17,778 bases of DNA, from the IMG/VR virus record IMGVR_UViG_2711768043_000005, positions 1 to 17,778 of that record; one strand, given 5' to 3'. Position numbers and translations under genes: made by a program. Under the pieces are notes generated by a model, which did no database searches, was not told where the DNA came from, and was given only the letters and a program-made list of their open reading frames with translations. This DNA comes from a virus. Taxonomy: Duplodnaviria; Heunggongvirae; Uroviricota; Caudoviricetes. This document shows, one piece after another, positions 8,213-16,410 of the stretch; positions within the stretch are counted from its first letter, which is position 1; every line of letters starts with the position of its first letter.

Positions 8213-8551
8213 CTATTTCCCTGAATTTACGACGAAACTGTTCGAGCGGACTGAAGCACTCATGCTCATAGCCTTCGCGGAGGTAGATAACCCGTTGTGT
8301 TTCCGGTTCCCAACGAATGACTCTGACGGGCACTCCGTAGTGATCTTTGAACCAGCGGTTAACTTGTCGCAAAGGACTGTCTCCTTCTGCCGGTTGAAAT
8401 CACCCACAGCCCACTCTGCAAAGCTGTGGGTTACAATTTCCCTGTCACCTGGTACATTTACTGCATAGCAATACTCCACCTTCGCTTTTCCACCCGGTAC
8501 AGGAAGCGCAATCAGTTGCGAGCGACGGTAGTGTGTTGTTAAACTGTTCAT
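8213..8551 (-). CDS. Hypothetical protein
   Basis: 112 aa; ATGA start/stop overlap with the upstream cII-like gene and GGAGA about 10 nt upstream; no recognisable domain; an overlapping plus-strand ORF (8196-8468) makes the call uncertain. Confidence 0.4.
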
Positions 8552-9132
8552 GCGTTAGTTTCTCCACAGTCACGACACGCCACGGCGCCCGGAGCTGCAC
8601 ACTCGCGGGCGTCATTACTTTCTGAAATGCAAAAGATTTTGTAGACCAGTGCTGCATGCTCCTGCAGCTTCGAAATTGAGAGATATAGCTCGTCGTTAAT
8701 TGCTGTTTTCTCATGCGGTTCCACTACACCGTCTTCGATTGCTGAACGAATCTGTTTTGAATAACTGCCGATCTGTTCAATGACTTCCAGCAGACGCTGG
8801 TTAATATCGGCGTTGTCCACATCCTCGACGTCAGGAAGAGACACAAATACGCCATTTGCAGACTGCGCCACAGCATCAGCAATGAAGTGAGTGCCACCAG
8901 CACGCTGTAAAACCATTGCCCATCCCAGCGGGAAAATCTGATCGCCATCGGCACGAAGGCGGTTAAATAATGCGCTCTCTGTTACATCCAGCCAGTCAGC
9001 AGCTTCAGCGTAACCCCCCGGCAACGCTGCGATAGTTTTTCTGACAGCTTTCACGTACCACTTAGGCTGTTTTTCTACTTTCCAGTGATGCTTACCCACG
9101 GCTATCTCCTTAAAACTGTGGTTACTTTTCAT
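8548..9132 (-). CDS. cII-like / YdaT-like regulatory protein (start uncertain)
   Basis: Follows the cro-like gene; start placed at the first in-frame ATG (MKSNHSF) since the longer ORF overlaps cro by 80+ nt; family assignment is from memory and tentative. Confidence 0.45.
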
Positions 9133-9370
9133 CTGATGAATCTTTAATCTTTTGAAAAATATCTGGACGTAATTTTTCTTTTGATATGCCAGTGGTCTTT
9201 TCAATGAATATCGAGAGCTTTGCAGGGGGACGCTTTTCTCTGTTCAACCAGTTCCAGACATGTTGTTGCTTTACTAAATGACCGCTGCTGGCTGTGAGCT
9301 TCCGAGCCAATTCTGATTGACCACCAGCCAGAGCGATTGCCTCCGATAAGGCTAATTGCTCAGGTGTCAT
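9122..9370 (-). CDS. Cro-like HTH regulator (YdaS-type)
   Basis: 82 aa; AAGGAGA RBS before the ATG; HTH-like segment GGQSELARKLTASSGHLVKQ; divergent from the CI-like repressor across an operator-rich spacer. Confidence 0.65.
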   Translation of the reverse strand: MTPEQLALSEAIALAGGQSELARKLTASSGHLVKQQHVWNWLNREKRPPAKLSIFIEKTTGISKEKLRPDIFQKIKDSSDEK

Positions 9371-9505
9371 AGCTTTCTCCTTTTTAGGTAGTTAAGTTGT
9401 TACGAGTTGCAAGAATACAACATTAACAACTTTTATCACAACTTTTAGGTGTTGGAAAGCTAAAACATAAAGTTGTAACCTCATCAAAAAAGAGAGGGAT
9501 ATGTT
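9371..9505. promoter_or_regulatory. OR-like operator/promoter region between cro-like and cI-like genes
   Basis: Repeated GTTGT/ACAAC half-sites (AAGTTGT at 9394 and 9471; ACAACTT at 9426 and 9439). Candidate minus-strand promoter TTGTGA (9436-9441) / TATTCT (9412-9417); candidate plus-strand promoter TTGGAA (9452-9457) / TAACCT (9476-9481). Confidence 0.55.
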
Positions 9506-10192
9506 GTGAAAACACTGGCAGAACGATTAAAGATAGGTAGAGAGAAAGCTGGCATGAGCCAAGCTCAACTAGCTGAAAAAATTGGACTTTCACAACAATC
9601 TGTAGCCAAAATAGAGAATGGCGAAACTCTACAACCGCGCAAAATTAAAGAAATTGCAAAAGTTTTAGGTGTATCACAAAAGTGGTTACAACTTGGTATT
9701 GAAGACAACGCATCCATACCTGATCTTGTTGTAAAAGAAGCAGAAAGCACCGCATTAGACCCCGATATTTTCGTAAACATTCCTGTTTTAGATGTCGAGT
9801 TATCGGCAGGTAACGGATGTCTGGCTGAAATAGTTGAATCAGCTATTGACTGGTTTCCGTTAAGAAGAGCAGATTTGAGAAAATCTGGCGTATGTGCATC
9901 TAATGCCAAGATCGTAAAAATATGGGGGAACAGTTTATTACCGGTTCTCAATAATGGAGATCTTGTTGCCGTTGATATTTCTCAAACCGTTCCTATTCGT
10001 GATGGCGATCTTTATGCCGTACGAGATGGTGTATTGCTAAGGGTTAAAATACTTATCAACTTACCTGACGGTGGCTTGATTCTTAGAAGCTTCAACAAAG
10101 ATGAGTACCCAGATGAAATACTCACCTTTGAAGATAGACGAGCCAGAATTCATGTGATAGGTAGGGTATTCTGGTCATCGCGAACTTGGTAA
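9506..10192 (+). CDS. CI-like prophage repressor (N-terminal XRE-type HTH, C-terminal S24 LexA-like peptidase domain)
   Basis: 228 aa; GTG start with AGAGAGGG RBS; HTH (MSQAQLAEKIGLSQQSVAKIENGE); Ala-Gly cleavage-site context (LSAGNG); S24-like Ser (GNSLLP) and Lys (LRVK). Confidence 0.85.
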   Translation: MKTLAERLKIGREKAGMSQAQLAEKIGLSQQSVAKIENGETLQPRKIKEIAKVLGVSQKWLQLGIEDNASIPDLVVKEAESTALDPDIFVNIPVLDVELSAGNGCLAEIVESAIDWFPLRRADLRKSGVCASNAKIVKIWGNSLLPVLNNGDLVAVDISQTVPIRDGDLYAVRDGVLLRVKILINLPDGGLILRSFNKDEYPDEILTFEDRRARIHVIGRVFWSSRTW

Positions 10193-11065
10193 TGCATCGA
10201 AAAGCATTTCTTCAGAAATAATTTTAAGTTTTGCACCATTATCATCCCTATAAGATATAGCCTTTTCGATCTTCCTTCCGTGACTTGAGAATTTCCAATC
10301 ACGGGAGGAAAGCGTCCCAATTACTAAAAAATCCAACTTTTGAGTAATTCCACTACTGATGTTCCCACCAGCATTTTTAATCAAATTTTCAACTACGGCT
10401 CTCTTTCCTGCAACAAAAGTGCCTGTAAGACAATAGGTTTTACCCTCTAACTCTATCGAAGCCCCTACATCAATAGGCAGCCTGGTCGCCAAACCATCCA
10501 CCACCCCACTTTCCAAGTCACATCCTGTGAAGTCTACTAATGCCTTATGTAGAGTTAAACTCTCATCTTCAGTAATAACACCATCTTTAAGAATTTCCTT
10601 TACAAGTGCATAAAGTTTTTTTCCTGGGTAGTTGTTCTTCAAAGCTCCATTTTGCTCAAGCCACCAATTAAGATATCTTATTTCTTCTTGAGTTAAGTTC
10701 CGATCAGCAATTAATCCTTTACATAGTCCATTAAGTAAATGGACATCTACATCCTTGGAGTAAAAATCAATTTCAGGGATATCAAGAATTTCCCTCTGTA
10801 TTTGGAGAAGGCTATTTTTAAGGTCATCACGTTCTTCTGATGTGATTATTCCATCCGCAAGAATATCCGACACCCGTGCTGATAGACTTTTTATAACTCC
10901 ATTATTGATAATCTGCTTTGCTTCAAGTAACCATGTATCTAAGTAAAGAACCTCCTCTTCACGGACAACTCCATCTGCAATGATTCCATCAATGATGCTA
11001 ATCAAGTTAGCAAATAACTTGTCCCGGTTCTGTGTGTAATTAAAAGCGTAAAGCGCGTCTTCCAT
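10175..11065 (-). CDS. Protein with tandem TerB-like ADG-x-IT-x-EE helical repeats and a C-terminal BRCT domain
   Basis: 296 aa from ATG at 11065 (GGAGG RBS 4 nt upstream); four repeats of the form [IL]xDG[VI]ITxEExxxL; C-terminus GKTYCLTGTF...GGNISSGITQKLDFLVIGT...AKLKIISEEMLFDAL resembles the ligase-type BRCT fold; AT-rich; 3' end overlaps the cI 3' end by 18 bp. Confidence 0.75.
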   Translation of the reverse strand: MEDALYAFNYTQNRDKLFANLISIIDGIIADGVVREEEVLYLDTWLLEAKQIINNGVIKSLSARVSDILADGIITSEERDDLKNSLLQIQREILDIPEIDFYSKDVDVHLLNGLCKGLIADRNLTQEEIRYLNWWLEQNGALKNNYPGKKLYALVKEILKDGVITEDESLTLHKALVDFTGCDLESGVVDGLATRLPIDVGASIELEGKTYCLTGTFVAGKRAVVENLIKNAGGNISSGITQKLDFLVIGTLSSRDWKFSSHGRKIEKAISYRDDNGAKLKIISEEMLFDALPSSR

Positions 11066-11099
11066 ACAACCTCCTTTTTTTGATAATCCTTGCACTCCT

Positions 11100-11200
11100 T
11101 GGCTACTCGTTCAAACCACATAAAGTTGTTGACAACATTCAAAACCACAACTAAATTACAACTTAAAGGTGTTAAAACAACGAACAGGCAGGACGCCCAC
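11100..11200 (+). promoter_or_regulatory. OL/PL-like operator-promoter region
   Basis: Candidate promoter TTGACA (11129-11134), 17-nt spacer, TAAATT (11152-11157); operator-like motifs shared with the OR region: CATAAAGTTGT (11120 vs 9468) and ACAACTTwwAGGTGTT (11157-11172 vs 9439-9454). Confidence 0.55.
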
Positions 11201-11267
11201 GAAGTAGCCGCCGGTGGCGTATGAATGACCGGATGATTCGTTAAATACTATGTGTAAGAGAGCGCAA

Positions 11268-11471
11268 ATGAACCGTTATTTCACATGCTCGTTTTGTGGC
11301 GCAAACGAGCTGCAGGCAAAAAAAATCATCGCCAAAGGCGGAAAAGATGAAGTTGCTATCTGCTCTGAGTGCGTAGTCTTGTGTGTCGGGGCATTAATCA
11401 ATATCAGCACAACTATTCAGTTCACACCAAATGAGAATGCGCCTTTAGATGCGCGGAAATCTGGAGGTTAA
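11268..11471 (+). CDS. ClpX-type zinc-ribbon (ZBD-like) small protein
   Basis: 67 aa; YFTCSFCGANELQAKKIIAKGG...AICSECVVLC aligns by eye with the E. coli ClpX N-terminal zinc-binding domain ([32 protein letters not shown]); AAGAGAG RBS. Confidence 0.7.
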   Translation: MNRYFTCSFCGANELQAKKIIAKGGKDEVAICSECVVLCVGALINISTTIQFTPNENAPLDARKSGG

Positions 11472-11479
11472 AGAACAAA

Positions 11480-11755
11480 ATGAAAGTCCAGATTTTAAAC
11501 AATAGTGGTGAAGTCGTTTGGTCATACGACATAGCCGCTCCTGTAGATCAGAGCGGCGATAGCTGGACCAATGGAAAACATCAGATTATGGCTGGAGTTG
11601 TGTTCTCTTTACGCCGTGCTTTAGAACAGGCTGAAGTCTTTCCATCAGACCCTGAATGGAAATGGCCTTTTTCTATTTGTCCAAATTCGGAGAGTACATT
11701 TCAGAAAATTGGTCAGAAAGTCGCACTCGAAGAGCATCAGCCAACTGTTTCCTGA
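11480..11755 (+). CDS. Hypothetical protein
   Basis: 91 aa; GGAGG RBS 8 nt upstream; its 3' end overlaps the convergent 81-aa ORF, so the true stop or reality of one of the two is uncertain. Confidence 0.5.
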   Translation: MKVQILNNSGEVVWSYDIAAPVDQSGDSWTNGKHQIMAGVVFSLRRALEQAEVFPSDPEWKWPFSICPNSESTFQKIGQKVALEEHQPTVS

Positions 11756-11918
11756 TTTTTTCAGGTAACTCGTCGGCATCGCAGAAACAACAACGCTCGA
11801 TCATGTTGAAAGCCGATTCGTAGAACTGTTTTTGCTGAGTGTCGCTGAGACAGGAAAAGAGCGACGTTACGATGATTTTATTAATTGCATTATCAAGTTC
11901 TTTTTCATCAAAAGTCAT
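11673..11918 (-). CDS. Hypothetical protein (antisense to the early-left operon)
   Basis: 81 aa; AAGGAAAA RBS-like sequence before the ATG at 11918; no recognised domain. Confidence 0.45.
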   Translation of the reverse strand: MTFDEKELDNAINKIIVTSLFSCLSDTQQKQFYESAFNMIERCCFCDADELPEKIRKQLADALRVRLSDQFSEMYSPNLDK

Positions 11919-12173
11919 TTGATTTTCCTTTTATGTATACGGGCTTAAAAGGATACCACCGAGCCTGAAGTGGTGAAAAGACAGGCACATAACAGCTAAG
12001 TATTTTCAACCAAAGAGAATCCTTAGCGTTGTGGTGAATGCGGCTCAGCGCACGCGGGTTAAGGTTGAGGCTGACAGTCGACCTTCTGTGGATACCCACC
12101 CGTCTGGTGTGCAACCTTCGCCAGGCACCGGGAGGCACCCGGCACCACAACTTTATGCTGTGTGTAGTCCTGG

Positions 12174-12218
12174 CGGTACCAGTTTGTACCCTTGCTTCCG
12201 GCTGGTACCGTCCTTTTT
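12174..12218 (+). terminator. Candidate intrinsic terminator within a GC-rich non-coding island
   Basis: Perfect 9-bp stem CGGTACCAG (12174-12182) / CTGGTACCG (12202-12210), 19-nt loop, followed by TCCTTTTT. Confidence 0.45.
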
Positions 12219-12355
12219 ACAAAACAGAGAAGAGCATCACCGGACGACGGGCTCATAACCCAATCCATCCGGGCGGCTGCCACCGCAGGTGTTCTTCTCT
12301 GTTTTGTGGAGAAACTAATCGGCCTTGCAGGGTCGATATGATGAGGAGCAGCAAA

Positions 12356-12718
12356 ATGGCTAGCGAACGCAGTACTGATGTGCAGGCATTTATCGGGGAG
12401 CTGGACGGCGGCGTATTTGAAACCAAAATCGGCGCAGTTCTCAGTGAAGTCGCTTCCGGTGTGATGAACACGAAAACCAAAGGTAAGGTCTCACTCAACC
12501 TGGAAATCGAACCATTTGATGAGAACCGTGTGAAAATCAAACACAAACTCTCATATGTTCGCCCGACTAACCGTGGGAAAATTTCCGAAGAAGACACCAC
12601 CGAAACGCCGATGTATGTCAATCGCGGTGGTCGCCTGACTATTCTGCAGGAAGACCAGGGACAATTACTGACTCTTGCCGGTGAGCCTGACGGAAAACTC
12701 CGCGCAGCAGGTCATTAA
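12356..12718 (+). CDS. Hypothetical protein, YfdP-like (120 aa)
   Basis: GAGGAG RBS 7 nt before the ATG at 12356; the upstream in-frame extension to 12038 is Arg/Pro/Cys-rich and lacks an RBS. Confidence 0.6.
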   Translation: MASERSTDVQAFIGELDGGVFETKIGAVLSEVASGVMNTKTKGKVSLNLEIEPFDENRVKIKHKLSYVRPTNRGKISEEDTTETPMYVNRGGRLTILQEDQGQLLTLAGEPDGKLRAAGH

Positions 12719-16334: not shown

Positions 16335-16410
16335 TGGTGCCGATAATAGGAGTCGAACCTACGACCTTCGCATTACGAATGCGCTGCTCTACCAACTGAG
16401 CTATATCGGC
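16335..16410 (-). tRNA. thrW: tRNA-Thr (anticodon CGU)
   Basis: Minus-strand 76-nt sequence GCCGATATAGCTCAGTTGGTAGAGCAGCGCATTCGTAATGCGAAGGTCGTAGGTTCGACTCCTATTATCGGCACCA with D-loop, anticodon loop TTCGTAA, T-loop GGTTCGA and CCA end. Confidence 0.9.

What the first reader, a model, noticed from the sequence alone, without database searches (positions are those of the whole stretch)
10175..11065. AT-rich antisense gene in the immunity region encoding TerB-like repeats fused to a BRCT domain
A 296-aa protein sits between the CI-like repressor and the OL/PL-like region, on the opposite strand, with a 3' end overlapping cI by 18 bp. This is the position where lambdoid phages carry lysogen-expressed exclusion genes (rexAB, sieB). 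It combines four TerB-like repeats with a C-terminal BRCT domain, a fold that binds DNA ends or phosphopeptides in ligases. I do not recognise this combination as a characterised defence or exclusion protein. Its low GC relative to flanking genes suggests horizontal acquisition. It could be a single-gene superinfection-exclusion or abortive-infection factor.
Basis: partly seen in the sequence, partly recalled or inferred. Interest (0 to 1): 0.75.

Follow-up and report, generated by a model that had tools for sequence, protein, structure and literature searches.

The report
Prophage repressor-linked BRCT sensor protein
A real but uncharacterised prophage gene sits next to the repressor gene and encodes two helical repeat units plus a phosphate-binding BRCT domain with no enzyme domain; it is most likely a lysogen-expressed protein that recognises DNA ends or nicks, perhaps to exclude other phages, but its function is untested.

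Summary
The gene is real: 10175-11065 (-), 296 aa, strong Shine-Dalgarno, under purifying selection. The window is an E. coli lambdoid prophage at tRNA-Thr/proA.

The family is large (2857 clusters). Its prophage members sit beside the repressor gene in three phage lineages and next to three repressor types. All 80 examined enterobacterial viral contigs show the window's convergent, overlapping arrangement.

A conserved promoter (TTGAYY-N17-TGnAAGGAT) abuts an OL operator centred near -43, the geometry of lambda PRM. This suggests expression in the lysogen.

The unit+BRCT module is shared with nuclease- and helicase-bearing defence candidates (PADLOC PDC-S48, PDC-S37/Hhe-like), but this protein has no effector domain.

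Best reading (confidence ~0.4) is a lysogen-expressed binder of DNA ends or nicks acting in superinfection exclusion. The main rival is a DNA-damage sensor of the lysis-lysogeny switch. No phenotype is known.

The parts
10175..11065 (-). Coding sequence, 296 aa (WP_000389078.1, 'BRCT domain-containing protein'; PHROG 3989)
   Evidence: ORF. The ATG has AAGGAGG 5 nt upstream. RefSeq annotation agrees. PHROG 3989 matches full length, E 1.5e-128. dN/dS ~0.055.
10772..11044 (-). Helical unit 1 (residues ~8-98): a four-helix bundle with two [A/S]DGxhxxxE loops (D31/E38, D71/E78)
   Evidence: AF2 pLDDT 93.6, helices 10-28, 36-48, 56-69, 76-93. Internal repeat hhalign 99.7%. E38 is conserved in 74/74 and D31 in 70/74 sequences.
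10511..10759 (-). Helical unit 2 (residues ~103-185), a duplicate of unit 1 (D121/E128, D161/E168). Together with the BRCT it forms the ~185-aa core found alone in the ~205-217-aa short forms.
   Evidence: (short forms align to residues ~105-290). The PDC-S48 match covers residues 119-251.
10193..10459 (-). BRCT domain (residues ~203-291) with conserved phosphate pocket T214, G215, R222, K265 and a family-specific insert 253-262 (SSRDWKFSSH, W257 invariant)
10175..10192 (.). 18-bp convergent overlap of the 3' ends of this gene and cI
   Evidence: Coordinates. The same convergent arrangement, with the ends overlapping by 8-17 nt in nearly all, is seen in 80/80 related viral contigs.
11070..11076 (-). 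Shine-Dalgarno AAGGAGG
   Evidence: Read directly from the sequence. Conserved in relatives.
11086..11094 (-). Putative extended -10 of the gene's own promoter: TG(C)AAGGAT
   Evidence: Phylogenetic footprint. TGnAAGGAT is conserved at a fixed 17-nt distance from the -35 in 11 of the 15 sequences aligned (69-92% protein identity), while the spacer varies. Three more keep a variant -10: TGnAAATAT in L160, TAGAGGAT in L018, and only a poor TATCGA in L016. The simple consensus scan missed it. Inferred, not mapped.
11109..11114 (-). Putative -35 TTGAAC (TTGATT in most relatives)
   Evidence: Spacing to the -10 is exactly 17 nt in all compared loci.
11115..11129 (.). Operator O_B (minus strand ACAACTTTATGTGGT). 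It lies between the back-to-back -35 hexamers of PL and of this gene's promoter, centred at about -43 of both.
   Evidence: 13/15 identical to the OR site AAAACATAAAGTTGT, 9462-9476. Invariant in relatives. CI binding is inferred, not shown.
11129..11157 (+). PL-like promoter TTGACA-17-TAAATT, driving the ClpX-zinc-finger gene and the early-left genes
   Evidence: Conserved in relatives on the opposite strand.
11158..11172 (.). Operator O_A (ACAACTTAAAGGTGT on the + strand), just downstream of the PL -10
   Evidence: Near-identical to the OR site ACAACTTTTAGGTGT, 9438-9452. Conserved in relatives.
9506..10192 (+). CI-like repressor (HTH_3 + Peptidase_S24), the strictly linked partner gene of the cassette
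   Evidence: Pfam. It co-occurs with the target in 47 of 47 E. coli genomes that carry the target and in 80/80 viral contigs.

Best explanation
The gene encodes a cytoplasmic, non-enzymatic sensor or adaptor protein that belongs to the prophage immunity cassette (cro - OR - cI - this gene - OL/PL) and is made in the lysogen. Two duplicated four-helix units carry four conserved acidic [A/S]DGxhxxxE loops, which may bind a metal or a partner. They are packed onto a single BRCT domain of the LigA/RFC1/PARP1 class whose phosphate pocket is intact.

The most likely job is to recognise 5'-phosphorylated DNA ends or nicks, for example the ends or annealed cos nicks of incoming phage DNA. By capping them, or by recruiting or blocking host enzymes such as ligase or nucleases, it would stop a superinfecting phage without harming the integrated prophage. 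That would be a Rex/Sie-like accessory function carried out by binding rather than by catalysis.

Shown: the gene, the fold, the conserved pocket, the linkage to repressor genes, and the conserved promoter and operator layout. Inferred: CI-dependent expression, DNA-end binding, and the exclusion phenotype.
For: 1. Real, conserved gene. PHROG 3989 matches full length. There are 2857 clusters at E<=1e-3. dN/dS is ~0.055.

2. Structure. AF2 gives pLDDT 93.6 and pTM 0.90. The BRCT is confirmed. Its best sequence matches are the RFC1 and LigA BRCTs. From my own knowledge, the RFC1 BRCT binds 5'-phosphorylated DNA ends through residues T415, G416, R423 and K458. The equivalents T214, G215, R222 and K265 are conserved in 70-73 of 74 diverse relatives.

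3. Lysogenic context in independent lineages.
- In Vibrio phage K139, the homologue Orf2 lies in the mapped lysogenic PL operon cI-orf2-glo-int, and glo is annotated as involved in phage exclusion.
- P0121 lies directly downstream of an HTH_3+S24 repressor.
- P0135 lies in cI-orf-BRCT-int.
- About 40 of 53 Pseudomonas prophage loci have it 23-134 nt downstream of a CI-like ORF on the same strand.
- In 80/80 enterobacterial viral contigs it is convergent with cI.

4. The adjacent repressors are of three unrelated kinds: S24-type, 186-type (Phage_CI_repr/CI_C) and short HTH_3-only. The constant is therefore the lysogenic transcription unit, not one repressor chemistry.

5. Promoter. TTGAYY-N17-TGnAAGGAT is conserved with a variable spacer. 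The -35 abuts operator O_B, centred near -43, and no operator lies within the promoter itself. This is the geometry by which lambda CI at OR2 activates PRM (my knowledge).

6. The same unit+BRCT module is fused elsewhere to DNA-acting or defence-type effectors. These are DEDDh exonuclease (the PADLOC candidate PDC-S48), LigA-type HhH2+BRCT, and a 2042-aa helicase + MTES_1575 nuclease that matches PDC-S37, Hhe and MkoA.

7. It looks dispensable, as accessory genes are. It occurs in 0.9% of E. coli genomes. E. coli RMDEC465 has a natural clean internal deletion that keeps cI and OL. L115 and L116 carry a truncated allele.
Against: No phenotype or expression data exist for any member. I found no paper on it.

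The protein has no effector domain, so any killing or blocking step must be indirect.

The PDC-S48 match is partial, and PDC-S48 is itself only a candidate.

Non-phage short forms in many phyla have heterogeneous neighbours with only a few defence-like genes. The family as a whole is therefore not obviously a defence family.

A protein that caps nicks should also disturb host replication unless it is regulated, and that regulation is hypothetical.

In this lineage the gene is antisense to cI rather than co-transcribed. The promoter is inferred from conservation only, and its -10 is weak.
Confidence: 0.4

Rival explanations
1. It is a DNA-damage-sensing accessory of the lysis-lysogeny switch. 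The BRCT domain detects nicks, gaps or ends produced by damage, and the helical units transmit this to the repressor or to the induction machinery. It would tune prophage induction or its stability rather than exclude other phages.
For: It sits beside the repressor gene in most prophage loci from three phage lineages. The cassette is inherited as a unit (47/47 E. coli genomes, 80/80 viral contigs). Its promoter is built into OL. A pure binding protein with no effector suits a regulator. A 2026 preprint notes cI- and BRCT-encoding modules replacing quorum-sensing modules in Roseobacter prophages and reads them as damage-responsive regulators (PMC13345283). Non-S24 repressors (186-type, P2 C-type) cannot sense RecA themselves and could use such a sensor.
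Against: It also accompanies S24 repressors, which sense damage on their own. About a quarter of the Pseudomonas loci place it next to the integrase among moron-like genes, about 2 kb from the nearest CI-like ORF. RMDEC465 keeps cI and OL after losing the gene. Many family members are not in prophages at all. I did not check whether the Roseobacter BRCT proteins belong to this family, and that paper's reading is an inference.
Confidence: 0.25
2. It is a lysogenic-conversion factor that helps the host's own DNA metabolism. It would protect nicks or ends, or act as a repair adaptor working with LigA or exonucleases. It would give the lysogen stress tolerance rather than phage resistance.
For: The family is widespread outside prophages. 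ligA is the immediate neighbour in 3 of about 62 distant loci. There are fusions to LigA-type HhH2+BRCT and to DnaQ-like DEDDh exonuclease. The best BRCT matches are to ligase, RFC1 and DnaQ-BRCT proteins.
Against: The chromosomal contexts are not syntenic even within one genus. The five Marinobacter loci all differ, which fits an accessory gene rather than a repair gene. The prophage members sit in the classic exclusion slot. The DEDDh fusion is the form PADLOC flags as a defence candidate.
Confidence: 0.15
3. The main role is at RNA level. Convergent transcription into cI (18-bp overlap, no strong terminator) tunes repressor levels by transcriptional interference or antisense pairing, and the protein is secondary.
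For: The 3' ends are convergent and overlap by 8-17 nt in nearly all of the 80 related viral contigs. Only a weak terminator-like site lies downstream of the stop, inside cI (10143-10120).
Against: The protein sequence is under strong purifying selection: dN/dS ~0.055, and pN 0.12-0.21 where synonymous sites are saturated. In other lineages the homologue is on the same strand as the repressor, so the antisense layout is not the conserved feature.
Confidence: 0.05
4. It is an anti-defence or decoy protein that protects the phage's own DNA ends from host nucleases or defence systems early in infection.
For: It is a DNA-end-binding type BRCT with no enzyme domain.
Against: The homologue lies in the K139 lysogenic operon. 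It lies downstream of repressor genes. In this lineage it diverges from PL rather than lying within the early operon. All of this points to expression in the lysogen, not early in lytic growth.
Confidence: 0.05

Closest known systems
PADLOC candidate system PDC-S48 (PDLC05027, 411-aa profile)
   Same: Profile positions ~225-411 correspond to the second helical unit plus the BRCT of this protein (E 2.4e-7, residues 119-251 against profile 239-377). Other family members hit the same part.
   Different: PDC-S48 begins with a DEDDh 3'-5' exonuclease (profile 1-164; P0227 matches both DEDDh and PDC-S48 1-164). The window protein has a second helical unit there instead and no nuclease. PDC-S48 is a candidate, not a validated system.
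Vibrio phage K139 Orf2 (AAD22066.1) and the Kappa / VPUSM8 / 919TP homologues
   Same: Same architecture and length: 33% identity over 95% of the protein, E 1e-38. It lies next to the repressor. In K139 it is inside the mapped lysogenic operon, followed by the exclusion gene glo.
   Different: It is on the same strand as cI and co-transcribed with it. The repressor is 186-type, not S24. The phage is P2-like, not lambdoid. I found no reported function for Orf2.
Lambda rexAB and P22 sieB (immunity-region exclusion genes)
   Same: It occupies the slot between cI and OL/PL. It is probably expressed in the lysogen and looks dispensable.
   Different: There is no sequence or fold relationship: no Pfam or PHROG hit to Rex or Sie families. 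It is on the opposite strand with its own promoter. It is soluble, not membrane-associated. No phenotype is known.
Single BRCT domains of NAD+-dependent DNA ligase LigA, RFC1 (p140) and PARP1
   Same: The fold and the T-G...R...K phosphate pocket are shared. NCBIfam LigA and DnaQ-BRCT models hit residues 202-289.
   Different: This BRCT carries a 10-residue insert (253-262) with an invariant W257, next in sequence to the pocket lysine K265. It is attached to helical repeat units rather than to a catalytic core.
TerB / DjlA-N / DUF533 (TerB-like) domains
   Same: The [A/S]DGxhxxxE(x)3L loop-helix signature recurs four times. 12/74 relatives give weak Pfam TerB hits and 3/74 give DUF533 hits.
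   Different: The window protein has no hit at E<=1. hhalign to a DjlA TerB alignment gives 2%. Among solved structures, only generic four-helix bundles reached the lists I could read. The motif also resembles the second half of an EF-hand loop, seen in weak KChIP/calsenilin hits.

Membership tests
BRCT (Pfam PF00533) | Profile score above the curated cut-off | tested here: met
   29 bits against a 21.3 cut-off, residues 206-290. 69/74 relatives also hit.
BRCT (Pfam PF00533) | BRCT alpha/beta fold | tested here: met
BRCT, phosphate-binding class (RFC1/LigA/BRCA1-type pocket) | Conserved Ser/Thr-Gly after strand 1, Arg in helix 1, and Lys at the start of helix 2 | tested here: met
   T214 70/74, G215 72/74, R222 72/74, K265 73/74. 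The alignment to RFC1 ITG...R is. I placed K265 against RFC1 K458 by hand, via the motifs GRKIEKA and QSKSDKA. Ligand binding itself cannot be tested here.
TerB (Pfam PF05099) | Significant profile match | tested here: not met
   No hit at E<=1 for the window protein. 12/74 relatives hit weakly, best E 9.5e-5. hhalign against a DjlA TerB alignment (PF05099 confirmed for its members) gives probability 2%.
TerB (Pfam PF05099) | Fold similarity to solved TerB-like structures | tested here: inconclusive
TerB (Pfam PF05099) | Acidic ADGxxxxxE signature loops | tested here: met
   Four copies: D31/E38, D71/E78, D121/E128, D161/E168. E38 and E128 are invariant.
PADLOC PDC-S48 | N-terminal DEDDh exonuclease domain | tested here: not met
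   The match covers only profile 239-377. The DEDDh part is profile 1-164. Pfam finds no RNase_T or exonuclease domain.
PADLOC PDC-S48 | Helical unit + BRCT C-terminal module | tested here: met
   E 2.4e-7.
PHROG 3989 (phage protein family, unknown function) | Full-length profile match | tested here: met
   E 1.5e-128, residues 2-295 against profile 2-295 of 296.
Immunity-region exclusion genes (lambda rexAB, P22 sieB type) | Located between the repressor gene and OL/PL | tested here: met
Immunity-region exclusion genes (lambda rexAB, P22 sieB type) | Expressed in the lysogen | not testable with these tools
   Support is indirect only: the PRM-like promoter and operator geometry, and co-transcription with cI in K139 and other lineages.
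Immunity-region exclusion genes (lambda rexAB, P22 sieB type) | Excludes superinfecting phages | not testable with these tools
   No experiment was possible, and no literature was found.
Moron (independent accessory transcription unit in a prophage) | Own promoter and terminator, base composition unlike its neighbours | tested here: inconclusive
   The promoter is inferred from conservation. Only a weak terminator-like site is present. GC is 0.38 but cI is 0.40. The gene and cI always travel together.

The most novel reading that the evidence does not exclude
The helical-unit + BRCT protein is the founding member of a widespread, non-enzymatic class of prophage immunity factor. It would be wired into the repressor's operator, with CI at OL turning it on as CI at OR2 turns on PRM. 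It would recognise the 5'-phosphorylated ends or cos nicks of incoming DNA through a BRCT pocket, blocking circularisation or flagging the DNA for host nucleases. The same sensor module would have been reused by nuclease- and helicase-bearing defence proteins (PDC-S48, PDC-S37/Hhe-like). That would make BRCT-based DNA-end sensing a bacterial antiviral principle parallel to its role in eukaryotic damage signalling.
Probability: 0.25. Interest if true: 0.8.

Novelty: new variant of a known kind. Interest (0 to 1): 0.6.

Why it matters
Genes beside prophage repressors (rexAB, sieB, BstA and others) have repeatedly turned out to be phage-exclusion systems. This family is large and occurs in many bacterial groups. 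It is tied to repressor genes of three different kinds. It also has a confident predicted structure with a clear, mutable ligand pocket.

If it excludes phages, it would be a defence protein that works by recognising DNA ends without any enzyme domain. It would also explain the sensor part of several candidate defence proteins. If it instead tunes induction, it would be a new input to the lysis-lysogeny switch.

Either way, the predicted CI-dependent promoter at OL, a PRM-like arrangement on the left operator, is directly testable.

Tried and rejected
- **PDC-S48 membership.** Rejected, because the DEDDh domain is absent.
- **A dedicated partner of S24 autocleavage.** Weakened, because the family also sits next to 186-type and short HTH-only repressors.
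- **A conserved partner gene among non-phage short forms.** None was found. Neighbours are heterogeneous: 3 LigA and a few defence-like helicases or SngC.
- **Stable RNA structure in the conserved PL leader.** The fold is no better than shuffles, z 0.17.
- **Literature.** Searches on TerB+BRCT, BRCT+anti-phage, BRCT protein+prophage, PDC-S48 and K139 orf2 found no functional study. The 1999 K139 control-region paper could not be retrieved.
- **Tool failures.** A genome scan with the diverse alignment A1 failed for lack of a conserved stretch, so I used the closer set A2. AFDB Foldseek was unavailable. Two metagenome context look-ups returned contigs too short to be informative.
- **The GTG start at 11095.** Rejected in favour of ATG 11065, which has the Shine-Dalgarno and matches the start of the homologues.
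Full report
**What is in the window.** The window is an E. coli lambdoid prophage integrated at tRNA-Thr next to proA. A near-identical region in strain ECCHD184 is annotated from terminase through integrase to tRNA-Thr and proA. ARAGORN finds tRNA-Thr at 16335-16410.

Around the finding the layout is as follows:
- a CII-like gene at 8548-9204 (-)
- a Cro/YdaS-like gene at 9122-9370 (-)
- an OR region
- a CI-like repressor with HTH_3 and Peptidase_S24 domains at 9506-10192 (+)
- the target ORF on the minus strand
- an OL/PL region
- a small ClpX-zinc-finger gene at 11250-11471 (+), followed by early-left genes

**Checking the observation.** The mechanical ORF runs 10175-11095 from a GTG. The ATG at 11065 has a perfect AAGGAGG 5 nt upstream. 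It is also the RefSeq start (WP_000389078.1, 'BRCT domain-containing protein') and the start shared by homologues. So the 296-aa reading is right.

The 3' end overlaps cI by 18 bp (10175-10192). GC is 0.38 and GC3 0.31, against 0.484 for the window. However, cI is equally AT-rich (0.40 and 0.29), so the whole immunity cassette is AT-rich, not this gene alone.

The gene is not a chance ORF:
- It matches PHROG 3989 end to end (E 1.5e-128).
- It has 354 word-indexed homologues.
- It has 2857 50%-identity clusters at E<=1e-3 and 1596 at E<=1e-10.
- It evolves under purifying selection. dN/dS is ~0.055 against a 92% relative. Against more distant relatives pN is 0.12-0.21 while synonymous sites are saturated.

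**Domain anatomy.** Pfam places a BRCT domain at residues 206-290, scoring 29 bits against a cut-off of 21.3.

The residues that form the phosphate pocket in this BRCT class are almost invariant across the family:
- T214 in 70/74
- G215 in 72/74
- R222 in 72/74
- K265 in 73/74

A family-specific 10-residue insert (253-262, SSRDWKFSSH) carries an invariant W257 and lies next in sequence to the pocket lysine K265. That RFC1 T415, G416, R423 and K458 bind a 5' phosphate is from my own knowledge, not from a tool result.

**The N-terminal half.** This half is a tandem duplication. Residues 16-93 and 106-183 align with hhalign probability 99.7% (E 3.9e-27). Each unit is made of two more weakly related helix-loop-helix halves. 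Each repeat has an [A/S]DGxhxxxE loop, and E38 and E128 are invariant.

Calling these repeats TerB-like holds only at the motif level:
- The window protein has no TerB hit even at E<=1.
- 12 of 74 relatives give weak TerB hits (best E 9.5e-5), and 3 give DUF533 hits.
- hhalign against an alignment of DjlA TerB domains gives 2% probability, over the 24-column motif only.
- A profile search of PDB sequences picks up only EF-hand loops weakly.

I therefore describe the units as duplicated four-helix bundles with TerB/EF-hand-like acidic loops. I do not call them TerB domains.

**The family and its fusions.** There are two main architectures. One is ~295 aa with two units plus BRCT. The other is ~205-217 aa with one unit plus BRCT, equivalent to residues ~105-290 here.

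The unit+BRCT core is also fused to other domains:
- DEDDh 3'-5' exonucleases (P0189, P0221)
- LigA-type HhH2+BRCT modules (P0161, P0209)
- a 2042-aa AAA_11/AAA_12 helicase with an MTES_1575 nuclease and DUF3320 (P0236)

PADLOC's candidate PDC-S48 matches the window protein only partially (E 2.4e-7, residues 119-251 against profile positions 239-377). Scanning fusion proteins shows that PDC-S48 is the DEDDh-unit-BRCT form, with profile positions 1-164 being the exonuclease. P0236 matches PDC-S37, Hhe and MkoA models.

So the window protein shares a sensor-like module with candidate defence proteins but lacks any effector. It is not a PDC-S48 member.

**Genomic context, the strongest result.**

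In E. coli complete genomes the gene occurs in 47 of 5426 genomes. This cI allele occurs in 48, and the two co-occur in 47.

The 48th genome, RMDEC465, has an 83%-identical cI with the same OL. There, window positions 10318-11032 (codons ~12-250 of the target) are cleanly deleted. The cassette therefore persists without the gene.

In IMG/VR, 154 contigs carry close relatives (69-100% identity). All 80 I examined have a CI-like gene convergent with the target, with the 3' ends overlapping by 8-17 nt in nearly all. Five species-representative genomes show the same arrangement.

Other lineages place the homologue on the same strand as the repressor:
- In Vibrio phage K139, Orf2 lies in the mapped lysogenic operon PL-cI-orf2-glo-int, and glo is annotated as an exclusion gene.
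- A 45%-identical relative lies 57 nt downstream of an HTH_3+S24 repressor.
- A short form lies in cI-orf-BRCT-int.
- Six enterobacterial genomes have repressor-X-BRCT-int.
- About 40 of 53 Pseudomonas prophage loci have the short form 23-134 nt downstream of a CI-like ORF. Most of the rest have it beside the integrase.

The adjacent repressors are of three unrelated kinds:
- HTH_3+S24
- 186-type Phage_CI_repr+Phage_CI_C (K139, L020)
- short HTH_3-only proteins (L012, L221)

The constant feature is membership of, or adjacency to, the lysogenic transcription unit. It is not one repressor chemistry.

By contrast, about 62 distant short forms from many phyla have heterogeneous, non-syntenic neighbours. 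Immediate neighbours include ligA in 3 loci and a few defence-like proteins such as SngC, BrxH-like helicases and PD-Lambda-1.

**How it is probably expressed here.** The OL region carries a strong PL-like promoter on the + strand, TTGACA-17-TAAATT at 11129-11157.

It also carries two 15-bp sites shared with OR:
- O_A at 11158-11172 (ACAACTTAAAGGTGT), matching OR 9438-9452 (ACAACTTTTAGGTGT)
- O_B at 11115-11129 (ACCACATAAAGTTGT), matching OR 9462-9476 (AAAACATAAAGTTGT)

I aligned the region upstream of the start codon from 15 sequences whose proteins are 69-92% identical. Three conserved blocks appear, separated by variable sequence:
- O_A with the PL -10
- the PL -35, O_B and TTGAYY
- TGnAAGGAT

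The spacing between TTGAYY and AAGGAT is exactly 17 nt in every locus, although the spacer sequence differs. This identifies a sigma-70 promoter with a weak, extended -10.

In the window its elements are, on the minus strand:
- -35 TTGAAC at 11114-11109
- TG at 11094-11093
- -10 AAGGAT at 11091-11086

The simple consensus scan missed this promoter.

O_B sits exactly between the back-to-back -35 hexamers of PL and of this promoter, centred near -43 of both. No operator lies inside the new promoter. This is the geometry by which lambda CI at OR2 represses PR and activates PRM (my knowledge). I infer that the gene is transcribed, and probably stimulated, when CI occupies OL, that is, in the lysogen. 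This has not been mapped experimentally.

**Best explanation and rivals.** The protein has no catalytic domain, an intact phosphate-binding BRCT of the DNA-end or nick-binding class, and duplicated acidic-loop bundles. Its gene is tied to lysogenic expression in several unrelated temperate phages.

- **Leading reading (confidence ~0.4).** A lysogen-expressed binder of 5'-phosphorylated DNA ends or nicks that interferes with incoming phage DNA. A specific and speculative version is that it caps annealed cos nicks or linear ends, so host ligase cannot circularise the genome. That would spare the integrated prophage, which excises as a circle.
- **Main rival (~0.25).** The protein is a damage sensor that feeds into the lysis-lysogeny decision. 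The tight coupling to repressor genes, its regulator-like lack of an effector, and a 2026 preprint support this. The preprint reads cI/BRCT modules in Roseobacter prophages that way (PMC13345283). Several points weigh against it: the protein also accompanies self-sufficient S24 repressors, some loci lie next to the integrase, and RMDEC465 keeps cI and OL without the gene.
- **Host DNA-repair or conversion role (~0.15).** The LigA and DnaQ-type fusions and neighbours fit this reading.
- **Purely RNA-level antisense role.** This is unlikely given the purifying selection and the same-strand layouts elsewhere.

**Comparison with what is known, and novelty.** The closest relatives are:
- K139 Orf2, with the same architecture and no reported function
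- PADLOC candidate PDC-S48, which shares the module but has a nuclease
- the LigA/RFC1 single BRCTs, which share the pocket

The gene is positionally analogous to lambda rexAB and P22 sieB but unrelated in sequence and fold. I found no functional study of any member.

I rate it a new variant of a known kind, namely a prophage immunity-region accessory gene and candidate defence module, rather than categorically new. It matters because it is widespread, structurally well defined, has obvious point mutants, and comes with a directly testable prediction of CI-dependent transcription from OL.

Noticed in passing
window 12006-12221 (+): Full-length match to the Rfam sRNA family STnc100 (RF02076), 39.5 bits, below the gathering score of 47, E 1.2e-5. 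It lies in a locally GC-rich patch (0.545) between early-left genes, where the ORFs look frameshifted (a 226-aa ORF at 12038-12718 whose C-terminal half matches PHROG 204). ECCHD184 annotates a frameshifted hypothetical protein in this part of its early-left region.
   Followed up: partly
window 11250-11471 (+): The first gene of the PL operon, where lambda has N, is a 73-aa protein consisting of a ClpX-type C4 zinc finger (Pfam PF06689, E 1.4e-10; PHROG 5259). It could be a decoy or modulator of ClpX substrate recognition.
   Followed up: no
window ~11185-11216 (minus-strand reading GGCGGCTACTTCGTGGGCGTCCTGCCTGTTCG): This sequence in the PL leader is conserved in many related prophages even where the flanks differ. 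Folding the + strand RNA gives no structure better than shuffles (z 0.17). Its role is unexplained; it might be a nut- or put-like site or a protein-binding site.
   Followed up: partly
L237 (E. coli RMDEC465, NZ_CM177019.1 2502285-2507953): A natural variant of the same immunity cassette: cI 83% identical with the same OL operators. Window 10318-11032, most of the target gene, is cleanly deleted, leaving the first ~11 and last ~46 codons.
   Followed up: yes
L115 and L116 (IMG/VR contigs): A 92%-identical allele is truncated to 241 aa, losing the C-terminal part of the BRCT. The CI-like gene lies 148 nt away instead of overlapping.
   Followed up: no
window 11480-11755 (+) and 11673-11918 (-): Two small ORFs, both with strong PHROG matches (3195, E 8e-64; 3311, E 3e-55), converge and overlap by 83 nt. 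This is a second convergent overlapping gene pair in the same region.
   Followed up: no
L002 (phage K139), L020, L012, L221: Repressors next to family members are of three unrelated types: 186-type CI (Phage_CI_repr + Phage_CI_C), short HTH_3-only, and HTH_3+S24. In the repressor-X-BRCT-int loci an unannotated ~200-207-aa protein X with no Pfam hit always lies between the repressor and the BRCT gene.
   Followed up: partly
L022-L086 (distant short forms): ligA (the complete NAD-dependent ligase) is the immediate neighbour in 3 of ~62 loci, and the Shango component SngC in 2. The numbers are too small to interpret.
   Followed up: no
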